A DNA stretch of 42,547 nt. It comes from a virus. Its lineage: Duplodnaviria > Caudoviricetes. A model generated the notes under the pieces. It made no database searches, was not told the origin of the DNA, and saw nothing but the letters and a program-made list of their open reading frames with translations. Location of the stretch: IMG/VR virus record IMGVR_UViG_3300037463_000059, positions 1 to 42,547 of that record; one strand, given 5' to 3'. Both the position numbers and the translations under genes were made by a program. The stretch's first letter is position 1. Each line of letters starts with the position of its first letter. Shown piece after piece: positions 1 through 42,547 of the stretch.

Positions 1-125
1 GCCGTCGCCGACGCCGTAGCCGTCGCCGACGCCGTAGCCGTCGCCGACGCCGTAGCCGTCGCCGACGCCGTAGCCGTCGCCGACGCCGTAGCCGTCGCCG
101 ACGCCGTAGCCGTCGCCGACGCCGT
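1..125. repeat. Perfect 18-bp tandem repeat GCCGTCGCCGACGCCGTA (6 full copies plus 17 bp, truncated by window edge)
   Basis: Directly visible; on the minus strand it encodes (GVGDGY)n. Confidence 0.98.
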
Positions 126-642: not shown

Positions 643-2934
643 TCACGCCGCTTCCTGCTCGGCCTCGGCGGTGCCGGCATTGGCGCGGACGAGGGCCTCG
701 GCCATGGGCGGGCAGACGCTGTTGCCGATCATCCGGATCTGCGCGGTCTTGGTCAGCGGCTTGCCGTTGACGACGGGATCGAGGACGTAGCTGTCGGGGA
801 AGCCCTGGGCGCGGGCGAGCTCGCGGGGGGTCAGCATGCGCATGCCGATGTCGGCGATGACATATTCCTCCCCGTGGATGGTGACCGTGACGAGGCCGAA
901 GCGGTCTTTGGTCGGCGCGGTATGGAGGGGCTGGTCGACCCGATGGCCGCTATCCTCGTTGCCATAATATTTGACGAGGAATGCCGAGACCTCGGCGAAG
1001 TGGGTTCCGCCGGCCGAGACCGTATGCAACGGCTCGTCGACCGGCTGGCCGTCGCGGCTGGTGCCGCGAAGCTTGACGAGGCTGGTCGCCGCCAGGCGCT
1101 GGGTGCAGCCCTTGCCGACGATGGTCGAGAGCGGCCGCTCGATCGGGTGGCCGATCATCCCTGTGTTGGCCTGCTCGATATGGGCGCAGACGAGGCTGTG
1201 CTTGGCGCGGCCCTCGACCGTCTGGACCGGATTGTCGGCCCCGGTCGGGGCGTTGCCGCTGGCGAACTTTGCGAGGAAGGCCGTCACCAGCCCCTGCTTG
1301 CACCCTCCGGCGACGGCGGTTCCGCAGGGCAGGTTGAGGTCGAGGACTCGCGGCGACTGGCCCTGCCGCTCGCCGTAGCTGAGCTGGATCAACATTGCGG
1401 CCAGGAGCCCGAACTTGTTGGCCTGAGTCGTCGCCGTGTGAAGCGGAACGGTCACCGCCTGCGCCGGGTTCGGCCCGAAATTGTTCTTGACCAAAGTGAC
1501 GGCGACCAGCTGCTGCTGACGGCCGCTGGCGGTGAGCGTCGAGACCGGGCTCGGCAGCGGGTGTCCGACCTTGCCGCCATTATGCTGGGCCATGTAGGCC
1601 GTGACGAGGCAGGCATCGGCCTTCGCCGTCGTGACCGGATAGGGGCCCTGCGGGTCGACCGGTCCGCTTTGGCCGCGCCTGCCGCCGCAGCCGACGATGG
1701 TAACCGCGATAAGCGCGCTGTCGCGGGTCGCGAGGACGGTCGGGAAGCTGTCCTCCGGGCCGTGATCGCCCTTGCCGCTTCGGTCGCGTTCGCCGTGGGC
1801 GGTGCGGGCGAACAGCGGCGCCTGAAGGGTCGCCGTCACCAGGCCGAGCGGGGTCGCGCCTCCTGGCCGCTTGATGAAGCTGTTGGCGGTGACGGTGTGG
1901 AGCGGCTCGTCGACGGCGTGACCGATCGCTCCGCCGCGGAACTTGGTGACGTGGGGGGCAACGATGGCCAGCTCGCCCCGGCTTGCGGTGGTGACCGTGC
2001 GGACCGGTTCGTCGGGCGAATGGACCCGGGAATCGCCCCCGCTGTGCGTGATCGGCACGATGAACGGCCTCGGGTTGTTGACGACGAAGCGCATGATGCC
2101 GTGGGCAATCCGGCGGCAGGTCGCGTCCTTGAGCGGCCGGGCCCGCTCGAAGATGGAGGGGCAGGGGATCGACCAGTCGATGATCTCGGCGGCAGTCCGC
2201 CACGGCTTCAGCCGGCCGGAGACGACGTCGGGCGAGCCCGGCTTGCCGTGGGTGGGGGCCGGCCAGACGATCGGCTCGCCGTCGCAGCGCGCGACGATGA
2301 ACAGCCGCTTGCGCGAGGTCGGTGCGCCGTAGTCGCAGGCCTTCAATTCGCGGTCCTCGACCCGGTAGCCGAGCTTGCGGAGCGCGGCGACCCACAGCTC
2401 GAACGTCTCTCCGGTCGGTCGCCGCGCGGGCTTCTTCGCCCGCTTGAGCGCTGGCCGGTCGAGCTTCTCCGCGCAGCCGAGGTCGAGGGGCAGGGTCGCC
2501 GGCCTGGCGCCGCCGAGCGGCACGGGCTTGCCGTCCGGGCCGAGCGGGCCCCATGTTCGGAACTCCTCGACGTTCTCGAGCATGATCATGAGCGGCCTGA
2601 CCCGCTGGGCCCAGGTGACCACGACCCAGGCGAGATCGCGGATGTTCTTCTCGACCGGCTTGCCGCCCTTGGCCTTGGAGAAATGCTTGCAGTCGGGGCT
2701 GAACCAGGCGAGGGCGACCGGCCCGCCGCCATGCTCGGCGACGACCTCGCGCGGGTCGGCCTTCCACACCGACTGGCAATAATGATGGGTGCCCGGGTGG
2801 TTCGCCTCGTGCATCGCCACCGCCTCGGCGTCGTGGTTGATGGCGACATCGATGGCCCGCCCGAGGGCGGCCTCGATGCCGGTGGAAGCTCCGCCGCCGC
2901 CGGCGAAATTGTCGATGACGAGACCGCGCAGCAT
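643..2934 (-). CDS. DNA (cytosine-5) methyltransferase with long repetitive variable region
   Basis: Motif I DNFAGGGG, motif IV FSPDCKHFS, motif VI ENV, motif VIII RKRLF, motif IX RELARAQGFP, motif X IGNSV. Confidence 0.96.
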   Translation of the reverse strand: MLRGLVIDNFAGGGGASTGIEAALGRAIDVAINHDAEAVAMHEANHPGTHHYCQSVWKADPREVVAEHGGGPVALAWFSPDCKHFSKAKGGKPVEKNIRDLAWVVVTWAQRVRPLMIMLENVEEFRTWGPLGPDGKPVPLGGARPATLPLDLGCAEKLDRPALKRAKKPARRPTGETFELWVAALRKLGYRVEDRELKACDYGAPTSRKRLFIVARCDGEPIVWPAPTHGKPGSPDVVSGRLKPWRTAAEIIDWSIPCPSIFERARPLKDATCRRIAHGIMRFVVNNPRPFIVPITHSGGDSRVHSPDEPVRTVTTASRGELAIVAPHVTKFRGGAIGHAVDEPLHTVTANSFIKRPGGATPLGLVTATLQAPLFARTAHGERDRSGKGDHGPEDSFPTVLATRDSALIAVTIVGCGGRRGQSGPVDPQGPYPVTTAKADACLVTAYMAQHNGGKVGHPLPSPVSTLTASGRQQQLVAVTLVKNNFGPNPAQAVTVPLHTATTQANKFGLLAAMLIQLSYGERQGQSPRVLDLNLPCGTAVAGGCKQGLVTAFLAKFASGNAPTGADNPVQTVEGRAKHSLVCAHIEQANTGMIGHPIERPLSTIVGKGCTQRLAATSLVKLRGTSRDGQPVDEPLHTVSAGGTHFAEVSAFLVKYYGNEDSGHRVDQPLHTAPTKDRFGLVTVTIHGEEYVIADIGMRMLTPRELARAQGFPDSYVLDPVVNGKPLTKTAQIRMIGNSVCPPMAEALVRANAGTAEAEQEAA

Positions 2935-9077: not shown

Positions 9078-9255
9078 CGCCTTCTCCGATCTCCCCGAGG
9101 TCGAGGCCGGGTGCCGGATGCCGAGCGCGCACGCGATCGCGCTCAGCGACAGGGCTGCTCATGAGGCGGCACGGTGGGGCAGCCAGGCCCTGCTCAAGGC
9201 CCTGTTCCGCTATTTCGCCAAGCATCATCCGCCGGCGGCGGGGGAGGGGCTGTGA
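9070..9255 (+). CDS. Small hypothetical protein (61 aa)
   Basis: Overlaps both neighbours; GSQALLKALFRYF helix. Confidence 0.6.
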   Translation: MADAFSDLPEVEAGCRMPSAHAIALSDRAAHEAARWGSQALLKALFRYFAKHHPPAAGEGL

Positions 9256-11993
9256 GGCACGCCGCCCCCTCGGCCGACTCGTCGGCGGCGCCGCCGCTCG
9301 ACTATCTCGACTTCATCCGGGCCAAGGCGGTTCGGGCGCCCGAGCTCGGGCTTCCGGTCGCGTCGGGGGCCGTCAACCCATTGCTCCATCGCCACCAGCC
9401 GGTGCTGGTCAAATGGATGGTGGAGGGCGGACGGCGGGCGCTGTTCGCCAATTTCGGCCTCGGCAAGACGATGATCCAGCTCGAGGTCCTCCGCCTCATT
9501 ACCGATGAGGCGGGCGGGATCGGGCTGATCGTCATCCCGCTCACCGTGGTCACCGAGTTCAAGCGTGATGCCGCGAAGCTCGGCATCGACGTCCTGTTCG
9601 TCCGGACGACGGCCGAGATCGAGGCGGCTCTCGCCGGCGGCTTTTCCGGTCTGTTCCTGACCAACTACGAGAGCGTGCGCGAAGGCAAGATCGACACGTC
9701 GATCCTGACCGCCGTGTCGCTCGACGAGGCCTCCTGCCTGCGGGGGATGGGCGGGACGAAGACCTTCCGCGAGTTCATGACCCTGTTCCCGCGGGTCCGG
9801 TACCGCTTCGTCGCGACGGCGACGCCCTCGCCCAACGAATATGTCGAGCTGCTCGCCTACGCCGCCTTCCTGGGCGTGATGGACATCGCCCAGGCCAAGA
9901 CCCGCTTCTTCCGGAGGAACAGCGAGAAGGCCGACGAGCTGACGCTGCACCCCCACAAGGAGGACGAGTTCTGGCTGTGGGTGAACAGCTGGGCGGCGTT
10001 CGTCCAGAGGCCGTCCGACCTCGGCTTCTCCGACGAGGGCTACGAGCTGCCGCCGCTCGACGCGCGCTGGCACGAGGTGGCCAGCGATCACTCGGCGGCC
10101 GGGCTTGAGGGACGCCAGCACCTGCTGCTCAAGAAGGACGCGATCGGGATCGTCGAGGCAAGCCGGGAGAAGCGCGACAGCATCGGGGCTCGGGTCGCCA
10201 AGATGATGGAGCTCCGGGCCGAGGATCCCGGCGCTCACCGCCTGCTGTGGCACGACCTCGAGGACGAGCGGCGGGCGATCGAGGCGGCCGTTCCCAACGC
10301 GGTTTCGATCTACGGATCGCAGGATCTCGATACGCGCGAGCGGGCGATCATCGCCTTCTCCGACGGCGAGGTCGGAGAGCTTGCGGCCAAGCCGGTGCTG
10401 GCCGGATCGGGCTGCAACTTCCAGCGCCATTGCGCCTGGGCGATCTTCCTCGGCGTCGGCTTCAAGTTCAACGACTTCATCCAGGCCGTCCACCGGATCC
10501 AGCGATTCCTGCAGACCCGGCCGGTCAGGATCGACCTCATCCATACCGAGGCCGAGCGGGCGGTGCGCGCGGAGCTCGAGCGCAAGTGGCGCGACCACGA
10601 CCGGATGTGTGCCCGGATGAGCGAGCTGATCCGCAGATACGGGCTCGGCCTGAAGAGCGCCGTCGCTGCGTTCGAGCGGACGATCGAGACGGGCGTCGCC
10701 GAGGAAGTCGAATATTCAGCCGAGGCGTTGCCCTTCGTTGGAGAGCCGGACGTCTTTACGCCGTCGTGGCAGGTCTGGCGCGACGACGCGGTTCTGAGGA
10801 CGGCGAAGCTGCCCTCGGACAGCGCCGGCCTGGTGGTGACGTCGATCCCCTTCTCGACCCAGTACGAATACACCCCCTGCTACAACGATCTCGGCCATTC
10901 GAGCGGGCTCGACGAATTCTTCGACCAGATGGGCTATCTGACCCCGGAGCTGCTCCGAATTCTCCAGCCGGGCCGGAGGCTGGCCGTCCACGTCAAGGAC
11001 CGGGTGGTGGAGAGCGGCCGGACCGGGCTCGGATTCCGCACCGTCGAGCCGTTCCACGCGCGCTGCATCGACCATTACCGGTCGCACGGCTTCGCCTATC
11101 TCGGGATGATCACGATCGTCACCGACGTCGTGCGCGAGAATGCCGGCACCTACCGGCTGGGCTGGTCCGAGCAGTGCAAGGATTCGAGCGGGATGGGCGT
11201 CGGCCTGCCCGAATATCTGCTTCTGTTCCGCAAGGCCCCGAGCGACCGGTCGAACGGCTATGCCGACGTCCCGGTGGCGAAGGCCAAGCCGAAGGTCCGG
11301 CTGCAGGAGTCCGGGGAGGAGGTCCCCTGGGACGACGCCCTGATCCGGAGCCGGGCGGCGAGGCCGGCGGAAGGGTCGGGCTACAGCCGGGCGCGCTGGC
11401 AGACCGACGCCGCCGGCTACTGGCGCAGCTCGGGCGACCGGACCCTGACGGCCGAGGACCTGGTCGGGCTGCCGTGGAAGAAGCTCTATCGCCTGTTCCG
11501 GGGCTGGTCCTACGGAAACGTCTACGACCATGAGGGGCATGTCGCGCTGATGGAGGCGGTCGAAAGCCGCTGGTCGCTTCCGCCCGACTTCGCTTTGATG
11601 CCGGTGCAGTCCTGGCATCCCGAGGTGTGGACCGACGTCGCCCGCATGCGCGGCGCCAATACCGAGCAGTCGCACCGGGCCCGCGAGCAGCATCTGTGTC
11701 CCTTGCCCTACGACATCGTCGACCGGGCGATCCTCAACTGGAGCAATCCCGGCGATCTCGTCTTCGACCCGTTCGGCGGGCTGATGACCGTGCCTCTGCG
11801 CGCCGTCCGGCACGGCCGGAGGGGCGCCGCGGTCGAGCTCAACCCCGGCTATTTCGCCGACGGCGTGCGGCTGCTCCGCGAGCAGGATGCGGGGCGGGCG
11901 ACGGCCGGTCTGTTCGACCTGATCGACGCGGAGAAGGACTCGGCCGAGGACGTCGGCGACCTTCCCGGCGAAGCGCTGGAGGCGGCGGAATGA
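9252..11993 (+). CDS. SNF2-like helicase fused to N4/N6 (beta-class) DNA methyltransferase
   Basis: FGLGKT, DEAS, ATATP, QAVHRIQRF helicase motifs; TSIPF followed by VFDPFGG methyltransferase motifs. Confidence 0.92.
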   Translation: MRHAAPSADSSAAPPLDYLDFIRAKAVRAPELGLPVASGAVNPLLHRHQPVLVKWMVEGGRRALFANFGLGKTMIQLEVLRLITDEAGGIGLIVIPLTVVTEFKRDAAKLGIDVLFVRTTAEIEAALAGGFSGLFLTNYESVREGKIDTSILTAVSLDEASCLRGMGGTKTFREFMTLFPRVRYRFVATATPSPNEYVELLAYAAFLGVMDIAQAKTRFFRRNSEKADELTLHPHKEDEFWLWVNSWAAFVQRPSDLGFSDEGYELPPLDARWHEVASDHSAAGLEGRQHLLLKKDAIGIVEASREKRDSIGARVAKMMELRAEDPGAHRLLWHDLEDERRAIEAAVPNAVSIYGSQDLDTRERAIIAFSDGEVGELAAKPVLAGSGCNFQRHCAWAIFLGVGFKFNDFIQAVHRIQRFLQTRPVRIDLIHTEAERAVRAELERKWRDHDRMCARMSELIRRYGLGLKSAVAAFERTIETGVAEEVEYSAEALPFVGEPDVFTPSWQVWRDDAVLRTAKLPSDSAGLVVTSIPFSTQYEYTPCYNDLGHSSGLDEFFDQMGYLTPELLRILQPGRRLAVHVKDRVVESGRTGLGFRTVEPFHARCIDHYRSHGFAYLGMITIVTDVVRENAGTYRLGWSEQCKDSSGMGVGLPEYLLLFRKAPSDRSNGYADVPVAKAKPKVRLQESGEEVPWDDALIRSRAARPAEGSGYSRARWQTDAAGYWRSSGDRTLTAEDLVGLPWKKLYRLFRGWSYGNVYDHEGHVALMEAVESRWSLPPDFALMPVQSWHPEVWTDVARMRGANTEQSHRAREQHLCPLPYDIVDRAILNWSNPGDLVFDPFGGLMTVPLRAVRHGRRGAAVELNPGYFADGVRLLREQDAGRATAGLFDLIDAEKDSAEDVGDLPGEALEAAE

Positions 11994-30319: not shown

Positions 30320-31054
30320 GTGCCCGGAATCCTCGACCCTCGACTGATCCTCGACTCGCCGCAGCTGCGGGCCGAGCAGGACCGAGTGTCCCGGTTCATG
30401 CTCAATGCCGCCAAGAATGCGGTCGCAGATGCGACCAAGGGCCTGGAGCGGGAGCTGGAGGCGATCACGCGGGACGCGGCCGGAGGGAGGCTGTGGCGAG
30501 CCTGGAAGAGCGAGGTCTATCCGCGCACCGGGATCGCGCGCGAGCCGTCCGGCTCGGTATTCGTCAACGGCGGGCCGCGATCGCGCGGAGCGATCGAGTT
30601 CTTCTCCCGGCCCGGCCGGATCAAGTCGAAGAGCGGCCGCTTCCTCGCCGTCCCGACGCCTGCGGCCGGGTCGCAGGGGCGCCGCCGCAACCTCACTCCG
30701 GAGGAGTGGGAGGCGCGAAACGGCGAGAAGCTGCGCTTCGTCTACCGGCGGGGCCGGCCTTCGCTGCTGGTGGCGGAGGGGCTGCTCAACGCCCGGACCG
30801 GCACATACCGGCGCTGGACGACCCGACGGACCAAGGTCGACGAGCGGCGCGGGTTCCGCCGGGGCGTCACCACCGTGGTCATCTTCGTGCTGATTCCGCA
30901 GGTGGCGTTCGCGAACCGGTTCGCGATCGACCCCGTCATCCGGAAATGGGGACGGAACCTGGTCGAGGATTTCGGGCGGAGAGCCCGGATGCTCGAGACG
31001 TTCGAGGGTTCCTCCACCCGCGCTGCGGGTGGACGGTTCCGCGAGATTCCATGA
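30320..31054 (+). CDS. DUF6441-like tail completion protein
   Basis: GGAGGAG RBS; basic protein; RLWRAWKSEVYP, GRFLAVPT, LRFVYRRGRPSLLVAE. Confidence 0.8.
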   Translation: MPGILDPRLILDSPQLRAEQDRVSRFMLNAAKNAVADATKGLERELEAITRDAAGGRLWRAWKSEVYPRTGIAREPSGSVFVNGGPRSRGAIEFFSRPGRIKSKSGRFLAVPTPAAGSQGRRRNLTPEEWEARNGEKLRFVYRRGRPSLLVAEGLLNARTGTYRRWTTRRTKVDERRGFRRGVTTVVIFVLIPQVAFANRFAIDPVIRKWGRNLVEDFGRRARMLETFEGSSTRAAGGRFREIP

Positions 31055-31076
31055 GCCCCACGGGGGAGACGAGCCG

Positions 31077-34000
31077 ATGGCCACTGCCGAGATCATCGCC
31101 CGGCTGAAGCTCAACGCCCAGCATTTCACGTCGGAGCTGCAGCGCGAGCTCGGCGGCGCCGAGCGGCGGTTCGGCCAGACCGGCCAGGTCATCGGTCGCA
31201 ACATCAGCGAGGGGATCGGCGGAGGGCTGCAGGAGGCGGCCGCCCGGGTCCCGGTCGTCGGCAGCGCGCTTTCCGGTCTGTCCGGTGCTGCCTTGGTGGG
31301 GGCGGCGGGAGTCGGAGCAATGGTCGCCATGCTCGGCAAGGGCATTTCCGAGGCGGAGACGCTGGCGGCGTCGGTGCGCCAGCTCGACGCGGCAACGCAA
31401 AACTTCAACAATACCGGCCTCAGCCGCGGCGACCTCCTCGCCTTTTCAGAGGAACTGGAGGACCGGTTCGCGATCGCCCAGGAGGAGATCGTCAAAGTCC
31501 AGGCCGAGCTGGCAACTTTCGAAGGCGTGGCGGGAACGACGTTCAAGAACGTGATGGTGGCGGCCGCCGACCTGTCCGCGACCTTCAACACCGACTTGTC
31601 CAGCGAAGCCATTAAGCTCGGCACGGTCATCCAGAACCTGACCAATGGCGACGTCGAAGGGCTCCGCAAGGCGCTCAAGTTTCTCGGCACGGCCAATCTC
31701 GAGGCAATCGAGAAGCTCGCCAAGACCGGCCAGGAGGCCGAGGCGGTCCGGCGTCTGTTTGCCGAACTGAAAGAGACGACGGGGGATGCCGCGGATGCGC
31801 GCGGCAAGGGGGTCAGCGGCGCGATGTTCCGGCTCGCCGACGCCGTCTTCGACACCACCCGCGAGTTCACCGTACAGAGCGGCATCCACTCCGCCGTCGA
31901 AAAGGGCCTCAACGACATCGCGGCTGCCGCCAAACTAACCGCCGACCAAATGAAGGAGATGAACGAACTCGAGGCGACGGGGACGATGCTGCTGTGGCTC
32001 ATGGAGGGTGCCACGGGGCTCGTCAATCCTTCGGCCGGGGTCGTCGGGGATCTAAGGCGGCGTGCCGCCGCCGAGGGTGCAAAGGGCGGCAATCTCTTCG
32101 ATCCGATGGACCCTGCCGAGCGGCAGGAACTGCTGGACCGGATCAAGGCGGAATCCGACGCCATGCGCGCGGCGAGCGACCGCAAGGCGGGGGCCGATCG
32201 CCGGCGGGCGGAGGAAAATGCGAAAAAGGGCGTGCTGCTGCTGCCCCCTGTCTCCGGACCGGTGACGAGCGGTTTCGGTCCCCGCGTGCGGCCCCGTTCC
32301 GGGGCCTCCGCCTTTCATCCGGGCATCGATTATGGCGTTGCCTCCGGAACGCCCGTGCGGGCCGGCGCCGCGGGCGTCGTCGTCCGAACCGGCACGATGC
32401 GCGGCCTAGGCAATGTCGTCGTCATCGATTACGGCAACAATATCGAAGCGCAGTTCAGCCATCTGAGCGCGGCGCTGGTGAAGCCCGGCGATATCGTCGC
32501 CCGCGGACAGGTCGTCGCCCGGAGCGGCAATACCGGCATCAGCACGGGCCCGCATCTCGACTATCGCGTCAAGGAGGGCGGGAGCTACGTCGATCCGCGC
32601 GATCGCCGATTCAAGATCGGCGACGGCGTTGGCAATGCCTATGCCTCTTTCGAGGAGCGGTCGGCGCGGGAGCGGGAGCAGGCCGACGAAAAGGCCGCGC
32701 GGGAGTTGGAGGCCCGGCGCAAGCAGCAGGAGCAGATCCTGAAGACGATGCGGGCCCAGCTCGACGTCGACGTCGACAGCGTGCGCTATGTCGACCTTCG
32801 GGCCCGAGGCCTCGGCCGGCTGGCCGCCCTCGAGGAGGAGCTGGACTCGATCCGCCGCCGAGGCGCCGAGCAGCTCGCGGACCTACCCGACAGGCAGGCC
32901 GAGCTCAGCGCGGAGATCGAGGCGCAGGCGAGATTCTACGAGGAGCAGGGCGCGGCCCTGGCCCGGCTCATCCAGGCCCATGGCGATCGGGCGACCCTGA
33001 CCAAAGCCGAGGCGGAGGCGGAAGCGGCGGCGAGCCAGGCGATGGTCGACGCGCTTGCCGATGCCGTCTCCCTGACCGCGACGGCCGCCGACCGGCTCCG
33101 GATCGAGGAGGCGATCGCGCGGGTGAAGCACCAGATCAACGGCGCCGTCGACGACGCCACCAAGGCCGAGGAGGAGGCCAAGGCCCTGCGCGAGGAGGCG
33201 CTCGAGCAGGAGGCGAAGCTTCGCAAGGAGGCGTTCGACGCCCATCGCGACCAGGTGCAGGACCTGGCCGACTTCTACGAGCGGGCGATGCGCTCGGGCG
33301 GCAAGTCGATCGTCGAGGACTTCAAGGACCAGATGATCTCCTCGATCGCCGACATCGCCGCCCAATGGACCTTGGCCTTGCTGTCCGGGCAGAAGGTCTC
33401 GTTCGGAAGCCTGCTCGAGAACATGGGGGCGACGACCGGGGGCGGTGCGCAAAGCGGCCCGATGGGCTTCCTCTCCTCGCTGTTCGGCGGCGGCGGGGGA
33501 ATCGCCGGCGCGGCGCAGCGGGCTCCGGGGGGCGGCATAGGCGGCGGCAAGCCGGGCGGGATGTGGGACGGCATGGCCAACGCCATGGGCGGAGCCGGGC
33601 CGGCCGGCGGAGCCGCCGGCGAGATGGCCGGCATGATGGGGTCGATCGGCTCGGCTATGCCCTATGTCGGCGCGGCCATGGCCGCGGGCCAGATGATGAA
33701 CAAGATATTGGGAATCAAGGACCCGACTGGCGGGCTGCTGGGTCCTCTCGGCGCCTTGTTCGTCAACAGCTTCATCCCGGCCAAACGGGGTTCGGCGACT
33801 TTGGGCTTCGACCCCTATGGCGAGCTGGGAGTCGGCAGTTCCCGCGGCAACAGCGCCAGCCGGATCGATGCGGCCAAGGGCGGCATCGGAAGCGTCGCCG
33901 AGGCGCTGCAGCGGGTCGCCGAGGGGCTCGGCGGCGAGCTGACGGGGCGGCCGTCCGTCTCGCTCGGGCTCCGGGACGGGAGCTGGCGGGGCGATCCGAC

Positions 34001-34859
34001 CGGCCGGGGAATCACCAAGACAAAGAACGGCGCGATCGACTTCGGCGAGGACCAGGAAGCGGCGGTCCGCTGGGCGATCGGCGAGGCGCTCAAGGACGGA
34101 GTCGTGTCGGGAATCTCCGACGCGGCGAAGCGGATCCTCGCCTCGGGGCAGGATCTGGAGCGGGCGATCGACAAGGCGGCGATGATCGTCGACATCCCTC
34201 GGCGGCTCGCCGCCCAGCTCGATCCCGTCGGCGCGGCGCTCGAGGCGTTCCACAAGGGCTGGGAGAAGCAGATCGCGGCCCTGAAGGAAGGCGGCGCGAC
34301 GGCCGAGGAGATGGCCGACGCGCACAGGCTCTACCGGCTCGAGCTGGAGGAGGTGAAGTCGTCGACCCGCGAGGCCTCGGCCGGGCTCAAGGACTTCCTC
34401 GCCGATCTCAATTTCGGCTCCGCCTCGCCTTATTCGCTTCGCGACCAGGAAAGGATGGCGCGCGAGGCGCTTCAGCCCTTCCTCGACCGGATCGGCTCGG
34501 GCGAGCGGATCGACCAGGAGAAGTACCAGGCGGCGGCGCGCAGCTTCCTCGATATCGAGCGCGAGCTTTACGGATCGACCGGCGATTTCTTCAAATCGAT
34601 GGACATGATCCAGGCGGCGACCGGCAAGGCTATCGCCGACATCGACAATGCGAAGCCGATCCGGACCTTCGCCGACCCGTTCATCGAGAAGACGGCGGCC
34701 AGCACCGCCGCGACCGCCAACATCGCCGACGACATGAACCAGCGTCTCGCCAATCTCGAAGGCCTGATGGGCGAGTTGCTGGCGGTGGCGAGGGGCAGCA
34801 ACGGAGCCGGATTCATCGGCGGCGGCGCGGGCTTCCTCGCCCGCTCGGCGCGAAGCTGA
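31077..34859 (+). CDS. Tape measure protein with internal M23 peptidase domain
   Basis: 1260-aa helical protein; M23 at about 32240-32600 (VTSGFGPR, HPGID, FSHLS, GNTGISTGPHLD). Confidence 0.92.
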   Translation: MATAEIIARLKLNAQHFTSELQRELGGAERRFGQTGQVIGRNISEGIGGGLQEAAARVPVVGSALSGLSGAALVGAAGVGAMVAMLGKGISEAETLAASVRQLDAATQNFNNTGLSRGDLLAFSEELEDRFAIAQEEIVKVQAELATFEGVAGTTFKNVMVAAADLSATFNTDLSSEAIKLGTVIQNLTNGDVEGLRKALKFLGTANLEAIEKLAKTGQEAEAVRRLFAELKETTGDAADARGKGVSGAMFRLADAVFDTTREFTVQSGIHSAVEKGLNDIAAAAKLTADQMKEMNELEATGTMLLWLMEGATGLVNPSAGVVGDLRRRAAAEGAKGGNLFDPMDPAERQELLDRIKAESDAMRAASDRKAGADRRRAEENAKKGVLLLPPVSGPVTSGFGPRVRPRSGASAFHPGIDYGVASGTPVRAGAAGVVVRTGTMRGLGNVVVIDYGNNIEAQFSHLSAALVKPGDIVARGQVVARSGNTGISTGPHLDYRVKEGGSYVDPRDRRFKIGDGVGNAYASFEERSAREREQADEKAARELEARRKQQEQILKTMRAQLDVDVDSVRYVDLRARGLGRLAALEEELDSIRRRGAEQLADLPDRQAELSAEIEAQARFYEEQGAALARLIQAHGDRATLTKAEAEAEAAASQAMVDALADAVSLTATAADRLRIEEAIARVKHQINGAVDDATKAEEEAKALREEALEQEAKLRKEAFDAHRDQVQDLADFYERAMRSGGKSIVEDFKDQMISSIADIAAQWTLALLSGQKVSFGSLLENMGATTGGGAQSGPMGFLSSLFGGGGGIAGAAQRAPGGGIGGGKPGGMWDGMANAMGGAGPAGGAAGEMAGMMGSIGSAMPYVGAAMAAGQMMNKILGIKDPTGGLLGPLGALFVNSFIPAKRGSATLGFDPYGELGVGSSRGNSASRIDAAKGGIGSVAEALQRVAEGLGGELTGRPSVSLGLRDGSWRGDPTGRGITKTKNGAIDFGEDQEAAVRWAIGEALKDGVVSGISDAAKRILASGQDLERAIDKAAMIVDIPRRLAAQLDPVGAALEAFHKGWEKQIAALKEGGATAEEMADAHRLYRLELEEVKSSTREASAGLKDFLADLNFGSASPYSLRDQERMAREALQPFLDRIGSGERIDQEKYQAAARSFLDIERELYGSTGDFFKSMDMIQAATGKAIADIDNAKPIRTFADPFIEKTAASTAATANIADDMNQRLANLEGLMGELLAVARGSNGAGFIGGGAGFLARSARS

Positions 34860-39123: not shown

Positions 39124-39684
39124 GTGGATGAGCTTCCGCGCTTCGCGCATATCGACGCCGAGGGTCGGCTGATCTCCTATGTCTTCAAGCAGGCCGGGAT
39201 ACCCGAGGAACATCTTCCGGTGGTGGCCTTGCCGTCGGACTTCTGGCAGCGCGGCTTCTACCGCTGGAACGGGGTGGAGTTCGAGGACGATCTCGAGGCG
39301 GCGCGCGCCTTGATTTGGGGAAGGGTGAAGGCGGCGCGCGACGCGCGGACCGTAGCGGGCTGCGAGACCCCGCTCGGCCCGATCGATACCGATTCCGCGA
39401 GCCAGGCGAAGGTGAACGGGGCGGTGACCCTGGCGATTCTCGCCCGGCTCGCGAACCGGCCCTTCAGCATCGACTGGACCATGGCCGACAACGTCGTCCG
39501 AACCCACGACGCCGGAGCCATGATCGCCGCCGGTTCGGCGGTGGGGCTCCATATCGCGGCCTGTCACGAAGTCGGACGGGCGCTTCGCGATCGGGTGGAG
39601 GCGGCCACGTCCGTGGTCGAGCTGCTGGCCATCGACGTCGAAGCGGCGCCCTGGCCGGGCAGGCTGCAGGCCGTCGAGGAATGA
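39124..39684 (+). CDS. DUF4376-like tail fibre-associated protein
   Basis: VKAARDAR...IDTDSASQAKVNGA...IDWTMADN. Confidence 0.85.
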   Translation: MDELPRFAHIDAEGRLISYVFKQAGIPEEHLPVVALPSDFWQRGFYRWNGVEFEDDLEAARALIWGRVKAARDARTVAGCETPLGPIDTDSASQAKVNGAVTLAILARLANRPFSIDWTMADNVVRTHDAGAMIAAGSAVGLHIAACHEVGRALRDRVEAATSVVELLAIDVEAAPWPGRLQAVEE

Positions 39685-39734
39685 AGATTACGTCCGTGGC
39701 GGACGGGGAAGCGCTTGTCGGCGGGAAGGGGTGA
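39681..39734 (+). CDS. 17-codon linker mini-ORF
   Basis: ATGA overlap with upstream stop; ends 4 nt before GTG 39739. Confidence 0.3.
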   Translation: MKITSVADGEALVGGKG

Positions 39735-39738
39735 GGGC

Positions 39739-40380
39739 GTGGATCAGTTGCCGGCGGTGGCCATCGTCTCGATCGTCTCCGCCTTGGTCGGCGGCGGGGT
39801 CTGGAGCTTCGCCTCGGCATGGCTGTCCCACGTCTTCCGCCGCGGCGAGCGTGACGAGGACCGCCGGGAGCGGGAGCATCGCGAGTGCCTGACCGAGCTC
39901 GCGGTGCTCAAGACCCGGCTTGATGCGCTCGAGCACCATCACGCCAGCCTGGTGCCGCGCTGGATCAAGGATTCGGGCAAGCGAATCCGGTGGATCAACG
40001 GAGCGGCGATGCTCGCCATCTTCGGGCCGCTCCGCAAGACTCGGGACGAGGTCGAGGGGCGGACCTTCGCCGATCTGCTCGACATGGAAGCGGCCCGCGA
40101 GATCGACCGGCTCGACCGGTCGGCGCTGGCCCGGCCGGGAAGGGCGGTCAGCACGCTGCTGCAGCTCCATCCGGCACTGCCGGCGATGCACATCGTCAAG
40201 GTGGCCGGGGTCGGGCGCGACAACGAGCTGATCTACGAAGGCTATGCCTATTGCACCAACGACCCCGCGGATCTGTGGGACCGCGGGGCGAGGCGCCAGG
40301 AAGAACAGACCGGCCTTTCCCGGCTCCGGATGCAGGGGCCGGCCGAGGACGCGACCGACCCGCCGGAGACGGCCGGCTAG
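39739..40380 (+). CDS. Single-TM, coiled-coil, PAS-like domain protein at head of lysis cassette
   Basis: TM AVAIVSIVSALVGGGVWSFASAWL; PAS_4-like PRWIKD...RIRWINGA...FG...DEVEGRTFADLL..EAA..IDRLDR.AL. Confidence 0.8.
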   Translation: MDQLPAVAIVSIVSALVGGGVWSFASAWLSHVFRRGERDEDRREREHRECLTELAVLKTRLDALEHHHASLVPRWIKDSGKRIRWINGAAMLAIFGPLRKTRDEVEGRTFADLLDMEAAREIDRLDRSALARPGRAVSTLLQLHPALPAMHIVKVAGVGRDNELIYEGYAYCTNDPADLWDRGARRQEEQTGLSRLRMQGPAEDATDPPETAG

Positions 40381-40397
40381 CCGACAGGAGGAAGTGG

Positions 40398-41054
40398 ATG
40401 GCAAGGTTCGACCCGCGGGTGCGGGACCTGCAGGTGCGCCTGCGCGAGAGGGGGCACGACATCGCGGCCGACGGGCTGTTCGGGCCCCGGACGCTCAATG
40501 CCGCTCTGGCGGCGCTGGGAGGGCCCGTGGAGCCCGCCGGCGGGGCGTCTGGCCCGGCCGGGCCTGCCGCCGCTGGCGAGCCTCCCTGGCTGCCCGTGGC
40601 CCGGTCGCTGCTGGGGACGCGGGAGATCCCCGGACCGAAGCATTCGTCCTTCATCGCCGAGGGATGGTCGCGGCTCGGGGCTCCCTGGTTCAACGACGAC
40701 GAGACGCCCTGGTGCGGATTTTTCGTCGCCCACTGCCTGCAGGAGGTCGGAATCGCCATTCCCGGCAAGGGCCTGTTCGCCCGCGCCCGCGCCTGGCTGG
40801 ACTGGGGAACCGCCTGTTCGCCCATGGTCGGAGCCGTCGCCGTGTTCGGCCGCGACGGCGGCGGCCATGTCGGCTTCGTCGTCGGCGAGAGCTCCGCGCA
40901 TTACTACGTCCTCGGCGGCAACCAGTCGAACATGGTCAGCATCGCGCCGATCGCGAAGGCCCGATCGCTCGGCTTCCGCTGGCCGGGCGCTCCGCCGCCG
41001 GCCGCGCCGCTGCCGGCGATGTCGGGCGGGGCCGTGTCGCGGGACGAAGCGTGA
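40398..41054 (+). CDS. Endolysin: peptidoglycan-binding domain plus TIGR02594 (NlpC/P60-like) domain
   Basis: AGGAGG RBS; LQVRL...ADGLFGPRT; PPWL, DDETPWCG, GGHVGFV, VLGGNQSN. Confidence 0.92.
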   Translation: MARFDPRVRDLQVRLRERGHDIAADGLFGPRTLNAALAALGGPVEPAGGASGPAGPAAAGEPPWLPVARSLLGTREIPGPKHSSFIAEGWSRLGAPWFNDDETPWCGFFVAHCLQEVGIAIPGKGLFARARAWLDWGTACSPMVGAVAVFGRDGGGHVGFVVGESSAHYYVLGGNQSNMVSIAPIAKARSLGFRWPGAPPPAAPLPAMSGGAVSRDEA

Positions 41055-41347
41055 TGGACGCCGAGGCTCCCCAGGTCGCGATCGAGACCGCCGAGAGGGT
41101 CAACGTCCCCGCCCAGGGCGGCCACCTGCCCTACGTCAAGGTGATCGCGGGGGTGACGTTCATCGTCCTCGGTGCCTTCGCGGCCGTCACGATCTACGTC
41201 CTCACCGCGGATCCGGCGAGCGGCATCGACGCCGCGACCAAGGGCTCGGTGATCCAGACCTGGAACAATCTCGCCATCGCCGCCGCGACCTTCTGGGTGG
41301 GCTCGTCGCTCGCCGGGAAGATGGCTTCGGCGCCGCCCAAGCCCTGA
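41054..41347 (+). CDS. Holin-like membrane protein (97 aa)
   Basis: TGATG overlap; two hydrophobic segments ending FWVGSS. Confidence 0.75.
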   Translation: MDAEAPQVAIETAERVNVPAQGGHLPYVKVIAGVTFIVLGAFAAVTIYVLTADPASGIDAATKGSVIQTWNNLAIAAATFWVGSSLAGKMASAPPKP

Positions 41348-41357
41348 TCCGAGGAGA

Positions 41358-42131
41358 ATGACGATGTTCAGGCCGATCCTCTGTGCGCTATCGGCAGCTC
41401 TCCTGCTCGCGGCCTGCGAGGGCGGCAGCAGGGAAAACATGACCGCCTCGACCTGCGGAACCGTGCCGAATCCGAGCGGCATGATGAACGCCGCCTCCGT
41501 GTTCATCGGGCCCGACCTCCCCAAGTGGGGCAACCAGTCGCCGGGAATGCCGACTCATCCGACGCCGGCCGAAGGCGGGGGCTGGCATTTCGACGTGCCG
41601 ATCGGCGTGGATCGGCCGCTCGAGACCGGCCCGCGCAAGTCCATCCCCAAGGTAGATTACGTAACCTTCAACCACGGCCCGCTCAGCGGCAAGACTCAGA
41701 TTCGGCTGCGCTACAGGCTCGACCTGGAGCCCGGCGCCGAAGTGCGGGCCGTTCCCGAACAGGATCCGCTCGGCCGCTGGCCAGCGCTAATGACCGTCTA
41801 TTTCCAGCGCAAGGGCGACAACTGGTCCGCGCAGGGCAGGTACGACACGTACCGCTGGTATGCCTCGGCCCACGACGTCAAGCTCGAGGCGGGCGAGTAC
41901 CAGCTGGTCGTTCCGCTCAACGAGGGCTGGACCTCCGCCAACCGGTCGACCGACGGCTCGGCCGTGAGCGCCAACCCTACCCTCGTTCCCGACCCGGCAG
42001 GCTTCAACGCCGCCAAGGCCGATACGGGCTGCGTCGGAATCGTCTTCGGAGGAAACGAGGTCGGCCGAAGCCACGGCATGCGCGCCACCGGCCCGGCCCG
42101 GTTCACCCTGCTCGATTTCAAGACGGAGTAA
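41358..42131 (+). CDS. Lipoprotein with beta-rich domain inserted in lysis cassette
   Basis: GAGGAG RBS; lipobox LAAC; aromatic-rich beta-sandwich-like body. Confidence 0.85.
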   Translation: MTMFRPILCALSAALLLAACEGGSRENMTASTCGTVPNPSGMMNAASVFIGPDLPKWGNQSPGMPTHPTPAEGGGWHFDVPIGVDRPLETGPRKSIPKVDYVTFNHGPLSGKTQIRLRYRLDLEPGAEVRAVPEQDPLGRWPALMTVYFQRKGDNWSAQGRYDTYRWYASAHDVKLEAGEYQLVVPLNEGWTSANRSTDGSAVSANPTLVPDPAGFNAAKADTGCVGIVFGGNEVGRSHGMRATGPARFTLLDFKTE

Positions 42132-42136
42132 CGGCC

Positions 42137-42547
42137 ATGCTCAACTCGCTTTATGCAAGGCTCGGCCTCGGCCTGGCCGCCCTCATCCTCATCGGCCTCG
42201 CCGCGTTCGCGATCAAGTCGGGCATCGACAAGATCGACCGGCAGGGGCGGCAGATTGCCAACCTCCAGCGCGACCTCGCCGCGGAGAAGGCGGCTCGGAA
42301 AGCCGACGTCGCCGGGCTCACCATCTTGTCCCAGGGAGTGGTCGCGGCCGCGTCGGCTCGAGCCCTGGACGACAAGCTACTGGCGGAGACGATCGATGCG
42401 AAAAACCCACAGCCTGTCAGTCCTGGCCTTGCTGACTTCCTTGACGGCCTGCGCAAGCAGCGGCCGCCCGCGCGCGGCGGCGTTGCCGGCGCCGCCCCCC
42501 GCCCTCGTCCAGTCCCTGCCGGCGGAGCCCGAGGTCCCGGCCGGTAA
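42137..42547 (+). CDS. Inner-membrane spanin (Rz-like)
   Basis: GGAG RBS; N-terminal TM LGLGLAALILIGLAAFAI then coiled coil; TAA at 42545-42547. Confidence 0.8.
   Translation: MLNSLYARLGLGLAALILIGLAAFAIKSGIDKIDRQGRQIANLQRDLAAEKAARKADVAGLTILSQGVVAAASARALDDKLLAETIDAKNPQPVSPGLADFLDGLRKQRPPARGGVAGAAPRPRPVPAGGARGPGR
42396..42547 (+). CDS. Outer-membrane spanin lipoprotein (Rz1-like), overlapping in +1 frame, partial
   Basis: GGAG RBS; own translation MRKTHSLSVLALLTSLTAC-ASSGRPRAAALPAPPP; lipobox LTAC and Pro-rich. Confidence 0.8.
   Translation, partial: MRKTHSLSVLALLTSLTACASSGRPRAAALPAPPPALVQSLPAEPEVPAG

What the first reader, a model, noticed from the sequence alone, without database searches (positions are those of the whole stretch)
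39681..41347. Membrane-anchored PAS-like sensor heading the lysis cassette: candidate signal-controlled lysis system
Seen: the gene in the usual holin position (39739-40380), directly before the endolysin, encodes one N-terminal TM helix, a charged coiled coil and then a segment with the PAS_4 pattern of sensor kinases (PRWIKDSGKRIRWINGA...FGPLRKTRDEVEGRTFADLLDMEAAREIDRLDRSAL...HIVKV...IYEGYA). It has no kinase, GGDEF or HTH output domain. A separate holin-like gene follows the endolysin (41054-41347), so this protein is extra. Known: PAS domains sense small ligands, redox, oxygen or light, and the soluble domain of T4 holin T has a related GAF-like fold used in lysis inhibition. Inference: Arg residues right after the TM suggest a cytoplasmic PAS, so this may be a holin or antiholin that ties lysis timing to host physiology, or a decoy that pairs with host PAS kinases.
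Basis: partly seen in the sequence, partly recalled or inferred. Interest (0 to 1): 0.9.

Follow-up and report, generated by a model that had tools for sequence, protein, structure and literature searches.

The report
Membrane-anchored PAS protein beside phage endolysins
A phage gene directly before the cell-wall-cutting enzyme encodes a membrane anchor, a long helix and a predicted sensor-type (PAS) domain; its close relatives keep that position while the neighbouring lysis genes are swapped, so it likely helps time host bursting and may do so in response to a molecule inside the cell, which is untested.

Summary
Confirmed: 39739-40380 encodes a 213-aa protein with one N-terminal membrane helix (N-out/C-in by charge in 42 of 43 homologues), a coiled coil and a confidently predicted PAS fold (pLDDT 91; Z 14.3), with no output domain. 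Among close relatives with downstream DNA, the next gene is an endolysin in 14 of 15 loci (five enzyme types), while the two-helix holin-like gene belongs to seven unrelated groups, which argues against a dedicated antiholin. It belongs to a wide phage superfamily (131 clusters; cultured Cellulophaga phi14:2 g078), only partly lysis-linked among distant members (6-8 of 19). Heme-, FAD-, LOV- and PYP-binding residues are absent, so light/oxygen sensing is unlikely. A Lys-Asp-Lys pocket pattern like that of VqmA is kept in 48 of 62, but VqmA's stacking Phe is not. Best reading: a LysF1b-like single-helix lysis regulator carrying a PAS domain that likely tunes triggering; lysis role about 0.8, ligand sensing about 0.4-0.45. 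Not found in print; the scan noted this architecture before on other genomes (e1-9772184, e1-6019345, e1-8120146), though not this sequence family.

The parts
39739..40380 (+). TM-coiled coil-PAS gene (213 aa), candidate lysis regulator
39745..39837 (+). single membrane helix, residues 3-33, Gly/Ala/Ser-rich with GGG-x-W; predicted N-out/C-in
   Evidence: more Lys/Arg after than before the helix in 42 of 43 homologues with an intact helix
39838..39942 (+). charged coiled-coil helix, residues 34-68, with H47-x-x-C50 at core heptad positions and R60/E65/H67/H68
   Evidence: C50 in 54 of 62, HxxC in 48 of 62; heptad register is my reading
39946..40263 (+). PAS domain, residues 70-175, with W75, K77, N87, D126, K154
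40264..40332 (+). C-terminal helix 176-198 (R186 in 61 of 62); specific to the close family (median tail 35 aa vs 6 aa in distant members)
40398..41054 (+). endolysin: peptidoglycan-binding N-terminus plus CHAP domain, no signal-anchor
   Evidence: TIGR02594 113 bits, cut-off 70.55
41054..41347 (+). two-helix membrane protein (97 aa), holin-like by shape and position only
   Evidence: no family match
41358..42131 (+). 257-aa predicted lipoprotein of an unnamed family with a fold resembling carbohydrate-binding modules
   Evidence: lipobox seen in sequence; ESM Atlas
42137..42547 (+). i-spanin-like gene (N-terminal membrane helix plus coiled coil)
   Evidence: sequence shape and embedded lipoprotein gene; scanned only against NCBIfam, no match
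42396..42547 (+). embedded o-spanin-like lipoprotein ORF, cut by the window end
   Evidence: phrog_456 Rz-like spanin E 1.2e-4 in this frame
39681..39734 (+). 17-codon ORF between the tail gene and the PAS gene; may be non-coding
   Evidence: not tested further

Best explanation
The protein is a single-helix membrane protein with a predicted cytoplasmic coiled coil and PAS domain that likely acts as a lysis regulator of the LysF1b/LysA2b type, and its PAS pocket would bind a small cytoplasmic molecule and so shift the moment of lysis. Steps: (1, shown) late-operon gene directly before the endolysin; (2, predicted) inserts N-out/C-in, so coiled coil and PAS face the cytoplasm; (3, inferred) it dimerises through the coiled coil, with H47/C50 in the core as a possible metal or thiol switch; (4, inferred by analogy) it accumulates and activates whichever two-helix holin the phage carries, or forms the lesion with it, letting the soluble endolysin out; (5, inferred, weakest) occupancy of the K77-D126-K154 pocket changes PAS-PAS and C-terminal-helix packing, which is passed along the continuous helix to the membrane segment and advances or delays triggering. 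Lysis role of any kind about 0.8; ligand gating about half of that.
For: Endolysin is the next gene in 14 of 15 informative close-family loci (10 of 11 after merging near-identical genes), across five endolysin types, gaps -14 to 42 bases in the 11 loci measured. L131-L134 share a 99-100% identical PAS gene yet differ in endolysin and holin-like gene, so the gene keeps its slot while neighbours are exchanged. The window's two-helix family occurs in 5 other loci without PAS; in 3 of them (L014, L015, L018) a PAS-less helix-plus-coiled-coil protein is adjacent, weakly similar to residues 16-69 (hhalign probability 40, 27, 8%). The N-terminal half of relatives matches lysis-linked families weakly: phrog_2658 'hol-like' in 5 of 45, DUF2730 (Mu releasin family) in 1 of 15 below cut-off. 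Same topology and charged helix as LysF1b, which is needed for lysis, and which complements a non-cognate phage and imposes its own triggering time (PMC13056207; bioRxiv 10.64898/2026.08.27.747656). Cultured phi14:2 g078 (same architecture, 33.6 bits to the close-family profile) lies before its endolysin and no holin is annotated in bases 1-100,000 of 100,418. Pocket residues K77/D126/K154 are kept in 48 of 62 close and 55 of 98 distant members, and all 5 that lose K154 also lose D126; the best PDB sequence match of the distant subfamily is the ligand-binding PAS of VqmA (E 0.0077).
Against: No experiment exists on any member. One close-family locus (L135) is followed by terminase, and of 19 full-length distant loci only 6 have an annotated endolysin adjacent, 2 more a DUF5675 gene, 3 only a small membrane gene, and 8 lie among head, structural or unrelated genes. 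The pocket triad is incomplete in 14 of 62 close members, including intact genes in L001 and L002 that still precede endolysins; it may be a structural ion pair. The aromatic residue that VqmA needs for its ligand (F67) is Ile/Val/Leu/Met in 62 of 62. Similarity to PAS-less lysis proteins is weak and could be coiled-coil composition. LysF1b data come from Gram-positive hosts. phi14:2 has other small membrane genes (g008, g108, g114) that could be the holin.
Confidence: 0.4

Rival explanations
1. Lysis regulator in which PAS is only a dimerisation or scaffold domain that replaced the usual charged tail; timing is set by protein concentration, not by a ligand.
For: Triad lost repeatedly in intact genes (14 of 62); no cofactor residues; short strands G and H; PAS-less proteins fill the same slot elsewhere; PAS domains without pocket conservation are thought to serve protein contacts (PMC10468136 section 12).
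Against: W75, N87, K77, D126, K154 are conserved over a superfamily with about 20-25% identity, more than a scaffold would need; the same pattern lines a proven ligand pocket in VqmA.
Confidence: 0.27
2. The protein is itself the hole-forming holin (a single-helix class with a cytoplasmic globular domain), and the two-helix gene is accessory.
For: Usual holin slot; LysF1b alone supports lysis and is triggered by energy poisons (PMC13056207 abstract); phiKZ gp142 shows that a one-helix holin with a cytoplasmic regulatory domain works (PMC12894885); in phi14:2 g078 is the only membrane gene beside the endolysin apart from a spanin-like gene; endolysins in 11 of 11 loci lack a signal-anchor and need a hole.
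Against: A two-helix gene follows the endolysin in all 12 close-family loci examined for it; topology is opposite to class III holins.
Confidence: 0.13
3. A late-expressed passenger that uses the slot between tail and lysis genes and has another job at the membrane (for example superinfection exclusion or host-physiology control).
For: L135 and 8 of 19 distant loci are not beside lysis genes; the gene is optional (absent from 85 loci fetched with the window's endolysin or holin-like gene) and rare (2 of 401 genomes of one sphingomonad family).
Against: 14 of 15 close loci have it tightly coupled to five different endolysins; D29 shows that single-helix lysis regulators can lie away from the cassette.
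Confidence: 0.1
4. A decoy: the front half of a sensor kinase (membrane helix, zipper, PAS) that pairs with host kinases and blocks them.
For: Architecture mimics kinase N-termini; phi14:2 g078 matches ArcB profile positions 118-231 weakly (E 5.9e-4); best non-family hits are kinase-type PAS proteins (P0136, P0153).
Against: A decoy would be expected among early genes and to resemble a host kinase closely; the close family has no close cellular relative and sits in the late lysis operon.
Confidence: 0.08
5. Releasin for a signal-anchored endolysin, or a periplasm-facing protein (T4 T-like or i-spanin-like, with the conserved Cys forming a disulfide).
For: DUF2730 hit in one distant member; Cys in the coiled coil of 60 of 62.
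Against: No signal-anchor in 11 of 11 endolysins; charge bias N-out/C-in in 42 of 43; a separate spanin pair is present.
Confidence: 0.02

Closest known systems
LysF1b (mycobacteriophages Girr, NormanBulbieJr) and LysA2b (D29) single-helix lysis regulators; PMC13056207, bioRxiv 10.64898/2026.08.27.747656
   Same: One N-terminal helix, predicted N-out/C-in, basic residues after it, highly charged cytoplasmic helix, co-occurs with a two-helix holin-like protein and a soluble endolysin; works with non-cognate partners.
   Different: LysF1b-type proteins are 92-150 aa with no globular domain and are from Gram-positive hosts; this protein adds a PAS domain and a C-terminal helix; no DUF2746 match was seen.
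Phage Mu releasin gp25 (DUF2730); PMC9239132
   Same: Type I membrane protein with very short outer end and cytoplasmic helical domain near the endolysin gene; one distant relative scores against DUF2730 below cut-off.
   Different: Releasin frees a signal-anchored endolysin in a holin-less phage; here the endolysins have no signal-anchor, a holin-like gene is present, and PAS is added.
phiKZ class IIIb holin gp142 with regulator gp143; PMC12894885
   Same: One membrane helix and a cytoplasmic domain through which triggering time is regulated.
   Different: gp142 is N-in/C-out with a helical-bundle domain regulated by a separate protein; no PAS.
T4 holin T with antiholins RI/RIII; PMC11413866
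   Same: Signal-controlled lysis timing through a soluble domain on a single-helix holin.
   Different: T's domain is periplasmic and the signal comes with superinfection; here the domain is predicted cytoplasmic.
VqmA of Vibrio cholerae and vibriophage VP882; bioRxiv 10.1101/2019.12.19.881847
   Same: PAS subtype with Lys on strand A, Asp on helix F and (inferred) Lys on strand H; a phage-borne PAS that influences lysis.
   Different: VqmA is a soluble transcription factor with an HTH output; the close family lacks its stacking aromatic residues, so DPO is an unlikely ligand.
Cellulophaga phage phi14:2 g078 'PAS fold protein' (NC_021806) and Chryseobacterium phage MA9V-2 gp249
   Same: Same helix-coiled coil-PAS architecture among lysis genes of cultured phages; members of the same superfamily by profile.
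   Different: Annotated only as PAS proteins, never studied; lack the long C-terminal helix; keep the VqmA-like Tyr and Phe.

Membership tests
PAS domain (fold) | five-stranded antiparallel sheet with helices C-F in PAS order | tested here: met
   (Z 14.3, rmsd 2.3, 98 residues)
PAS domain (Pfam PAS_4) | score above gathering cut-off | tested here: inconclusive
   window protein 19.3 of 23.1 bits; 37 of 45 homologues match at E<=0.05; 13 of 15 distant members at E<=0.001
Heme PAS (FixL/DosP; Aer2) | His on helix F (or E) | tested here: not met
   no His in residues 110-131; definition from PMC10468136 section 8
FAD PAS (NifL/Aer) | Trp on helix F | tested here: not met
   no Trp in 116-131
LOV / PYP | chromophore-binding Cys inside the domain | tested here: not met
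   only Cys are C50 (coiled coil) and C172 (end of last strand, not conserved)
VqmA-type DPO receptor | Lys equivalent to K101 (also K23, D71) | tested here: inconclusive
   K77 and D126 align with K23 and D71 through two profile alignments; K154 = K101 lies outside both alignments and is inferred from strand position
VqmA-type DPO receptor | stacking Phe67 and a C-terminal HTH domain | tested here: not met
   I122, aliphatic in 62 of 62; no HTH
LysF1b/LysA2b single-helix lysis regulators | one N-terminal helix, N-out/C-in, basic residues after it, charged cytoplasmic helix | tested here: met
   (prediction by charge and hydropathy)
LysF1b/LysA2b single-helix lysis regulators | two-helix membrane partner and endolysin in the cassette | tested here: met
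LysF1b/LysA2b single-helix lysis regulators | 92-150 aa without globular domain; DUF2746 homology | tested here: not met
   213 aa with PAS; DUF2746 is not among the families shown for 45 members (first 25 of 38 shown) nor for the window protein
LysF1b/LysA2b single-helix lysis regulators | deletion delays or impairs lysis; triggering by energy poisons | not testable with these tools
   needs bench work
Mu releasin (DUF2730) | cognate signal-anchor-release endolysin, DUF2730 over the whole length | tested here: not met
   no signal-anchor in 11 of 11 endolysins; no DUF2730 hit for the window protein
Class III holins (T4 T, phiKZ gp142) | single helix with N-in/C-out topology | tested here: not met
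   charge bias gives N-out/C-in in 42 of 43; class definition from PMC12894885
Class III holins (T4 T) | fold of the soluble domain | tested here: inconclusive
   only a weak BFVD hit to a 'Class III holin' of Proteus phage Stubb, E 0.18
Sensor histidine kinase / GGDEF / HTH one-component system | output domain in the same chain | tested here: not met
   128 of 131 profile hits are <=275 aa; no hit among proteins of 407-2000 aa (weak evidence by the tool's own note)

The most novel reading that the evidence does not exclude
A widespread class of phage lysis proteins reads a cytoplasmic small molecule (and perhaps zinc or thiol state through the His-x-x-Cys coiled coil) directly at the membrane and sets lysis time post-translationally, with any holin as the downstream partner: a ligand-gated lysis clock.
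Probability: 0.35. Interest if true: 0.9.

Novelty: new variant of a known kind. Interest (0 to 1): 0.68.

Why it matters
Lysis time is thought to be set by holin concentration, membrane energy and, in a few phages, antiholins that respond to superinfection. A lysis protein with a cytoplasmic ligand pocket would give phages a direct line from host metabolism or cell density to burst time, without transcription. The superfamily is large (131 clusters at 50% identity; viral Atlas look-alike clusters of up to 1,142 members) and has a cultured member (phi14:2 g078) in a phage with no annotated holin, so the idea can be tested now, and it offers a candidate for missing holin functions in Bacteroidota phages.

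Tried and rejected
tblastn of the window protein against 50,697 GenBank phages: no match at E<=1, so no cultured close member. Searches for fused longer forms and short split forms (one 62-aa piece, likely a fragment) gave nothing; lengths 75-116 and 374-406 were covered only. L008 was a 37-residue chance match and was dropped; L007, L012, L129, L130 are duplicates; L006, L009, L010, L137 end at the contig edge; L013 is a broken relic; L120-L126 matched only over PAS and were not counted. A third subfamily (alignments A3, A5) could not be searched for context. The close-family PAS profile finds no solved relative by sequence. Cellulophaga phi18:3 gp090, a BFVD structural hit two genes before its endolysin, does not match the close-family profile and matches the broad profile only weakly (21 bits). 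No coordinates were returned for the model, so pocket volume was not measured. The tree is the quick version. Literature searches that found no description of PAS-bearing lysis proteins: 5 papers, listing only; 135 papers, 30 listed, listing only; 3 papers; 2 opened, irrelevant; 0; 0; 1 unrelated work; 0; the library lacks most subscription papers and no supplements were read.
Full report
Setting. The window is a whole 42.5-kb record of a lambda-like phage (repressor-type HTH, P4-type primase, lambda portal, ClpP-capsid fusion). Named close relatives of the protein come from Allosphingosinicella and Sphingomonadales assemblies, so a sphingomonad host is likely (inference). The right end reads: tail genes, PAS gene 39739-40380, CHAP endolysin 40398-41054, two-helix gene 41054-41347, lipoprotein 41358-42131, spanin-like pair from 42137.

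The protein. A word-seeded search found 45 proteins at E<=0.001 among 1,506 candidates, the window's own included, at 39-81% identity for the others. AlphaFold2 on their alignment gave mean pLDDT 91 with one continuous helix 4-67, PAS elements 74-172 and a helix 176-198. Foldseek against the PDB returned PAS domains throughout the list shown, and VIA-align gave Z 14.3, rmsd 2.3 over 98 residues. In 43 of 45 homologues with an intact N-terminal uncharged stretch (median 27 residues), 42 have more Lys/Arg after than before it and 38 have none before, which predicts N-out/C-in and a cytoplasmic PAS. A profile search of 1.84 billion representatives gave 131 hits, 128 of them at most 275 aa and 124 with an N-terminal hydrophobic segment; the longer ones are one extended member and two kinase-type PAS proteins. 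No fused longer form was found. The ESM Atlas look-alikes are mostly viral clusters of 183-229 aa with partial PAS annotation, up to 1,142 members, and the best BFVD hits are phage proteins of 169-240 aa.

Gene context, close family. Twenty-four locus records were fetched. Dropped: one chance match, four duplicates, four contig ends, one broken relic. With the window, 15 remain; the next gene is an endolysin in 14, the exception (L135) being followed by terminase. L136 and L138 are frameshift-ridden (L138 read by eye), and L131-L134 carry a 99-100% identical gene; merged, the count is 10 of 11. The endolysins are of five types (CHAP, phrog_181 chitinase-like, phrog_465, phrog_1224/2860, PF00959 lysozyme); none of 11 checked has a signal-anchor. 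A small membrane gene follows the endolysin in the 12 loci examined, but these fall in seven groups without BLAST similarity. The window's own two-helix family was found in five other loci, none with PAS; three have a PAS-less helix-plus-coiled-coil gene next to it or before the endolysin, weakly alike to residues 16-69, and two near-identical loci have a phrog_126 holin instead. None of the 85 loci fetched with the window's endolysin or two-helix gene holds a PAS member. The gene is thus optional, holds a fixed slot, and is indifferent to the identity of its neighbours.

Gene context, distant members. Of 26 loci from a low-GC subfamily, 19 are full-length. Six have an annotated endolysin adjacent, two a DUF5675 gene (taken by me as a likely wall hydrolase, from recall), three only a small membrane gene, and eight lie among head, structural or unrelated genes. 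This weakens a universal lysis role. Cultured examples: phi14:2 g078 precedes endolysin g077; MA9V-2 gp249 lies two genes after a GH108 gene. g078 scores 33.6 bits with the close-family profile and 144 with the broad one. No holin is annotated in phi14:2; a hydropathy screen of 70 selected annotated genes flagged g076, g078 and g108 on the late strand and g008, g114 (two helices each) and weakly g004 elsewhere.

What the PAS could bind. By the definitions in PMC10468136 (abstract, passages, sections 8 and 12 read) the domain lacks the heme His, the FAD Trp and the LOV/PYP Cys. Conserved instead are W75, N87 and the triad K77, D126, K154 (48 of 62 close, 55 of 98 distant; all five that lose K154 also lose D126, at four places on a quick tree). 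The distant subfamily's best PDB sequence match is VqmA (E 0.0077); through a profile alignment (96%) K77, A90, I122 and D126 correspond to VqmA K23, Y36, F67 and D71, and K154 is inferred to equal K101. In VqmA, F67 and K101 are needed for DPO binding (bioRxiv 10.1101/2019.12.19.881847, passages); the close family has no aromatic residue at F67, so DPO is unlikely. That these residues face the pocket is inferred from VqmA, not measured. The coiled coil has C50 in 54 of 62 and His-x-x-Cys in 48 of 62, at core heptad positions by my reading: a possible zinc or thiol site in a dimer, untested.

Mechanism. The closest working model is the pair LysF1a/LysF1b: a one-helix N-out/C-in protein with a charged cytoplasmic helix activates a two-helix protein and sets triggering time (PMC13056207: abstract, section 14 part 1, section 24); LysF1b complements the D29 homologue and imposes its own timing, and the D29 gene lies outside the cassette (bioRxiv 10.64898/2026.08.27.747656: abstract, section 22). 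This fits the exchangeable partners and the stray loci seen here. I conclude that the protein is most likely such a regulator with a PAS domain in place of the usual tail, and that the pocket probably, not certainly, modulates it. Mu releasin (PMC9239132, passages), phiKZ gp142/gp143 (PMC12894885, parts 1-3 of 6) and T4 T/RI (PMC11413866, passages) are analogues that fail on endolysin type or topology.

Novelty. Seven searches found no paper on PAS-bearing lysis proteins (mostly listings, no supplements read). The scan has noted the architecture on other genomes but holds no look-alike of this sequence. Verdict: new variant of a known kind, interest 0.68; the ligand-gated reading has about 0.35 probability and would merit 0.9.

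Noticed in passing
window 41358-42131: 257-aa predicted lipoprotein between the holin-like gene and the spanins; unnamed family, fold resembling carbohydrate-binding modules. D29 has an accessory lysis lipoprotein, so it may be a lysis accessory.
   Followed up: partly
window 31029-34859: Tape-measure-like gene carries an internal Peptidase_M23 domain (residues 429-523, E 1e-27).
   Followed up: no
window 1-125: About seven tandem copies of an 18-base unit at the left end of the record.
   Followed up: no
window 643-2934 and 9174-11993: Two large DNA methyltransferase genes, one cytosine-type (763 aa) and one adenine-type at the C-terminus of a 939-aa protein.
   Followed up: no
window 39681-39734: 17-codon ORF overlapping the stop of the DUF4376 tail gene and ending 4 bases before the PAS gene; could couple translation.
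   Followed up: no
L013 1342-1936 (- strand): Split, degenerate copy of the PAS gene in a chromosome, at the edge of what looks like a prophage relic.
   Followed up: partly
L131-L134 2483-4850: Near-identical PAS gene and upstream 144-aa membrane gene with swapped endolysins and holin-like genes downstream: a clear case of lysis-module exchange.
   Followed up: yes
L101, L102, L104, L116: Superfamily members sit inside the head-gene cluster, beside scaffold and major capsid-like genes, not beside lysis genes.
   Followed up: partly
L120, L123-L126: Stand-alone PAS genes without membrane helix, followed by small or multi-helix membrane genes and then a GH108 or lysozyme gene: a second PAS arrangement near lysis genes.
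   Followed up: no
L108 2962-3591 (phi14:2 g078): Weak match to the zipper-PAS part of the ArcB profile (E 5.9e-4), a hint that the module came from a sensor kinase front half.
   Followed up: no
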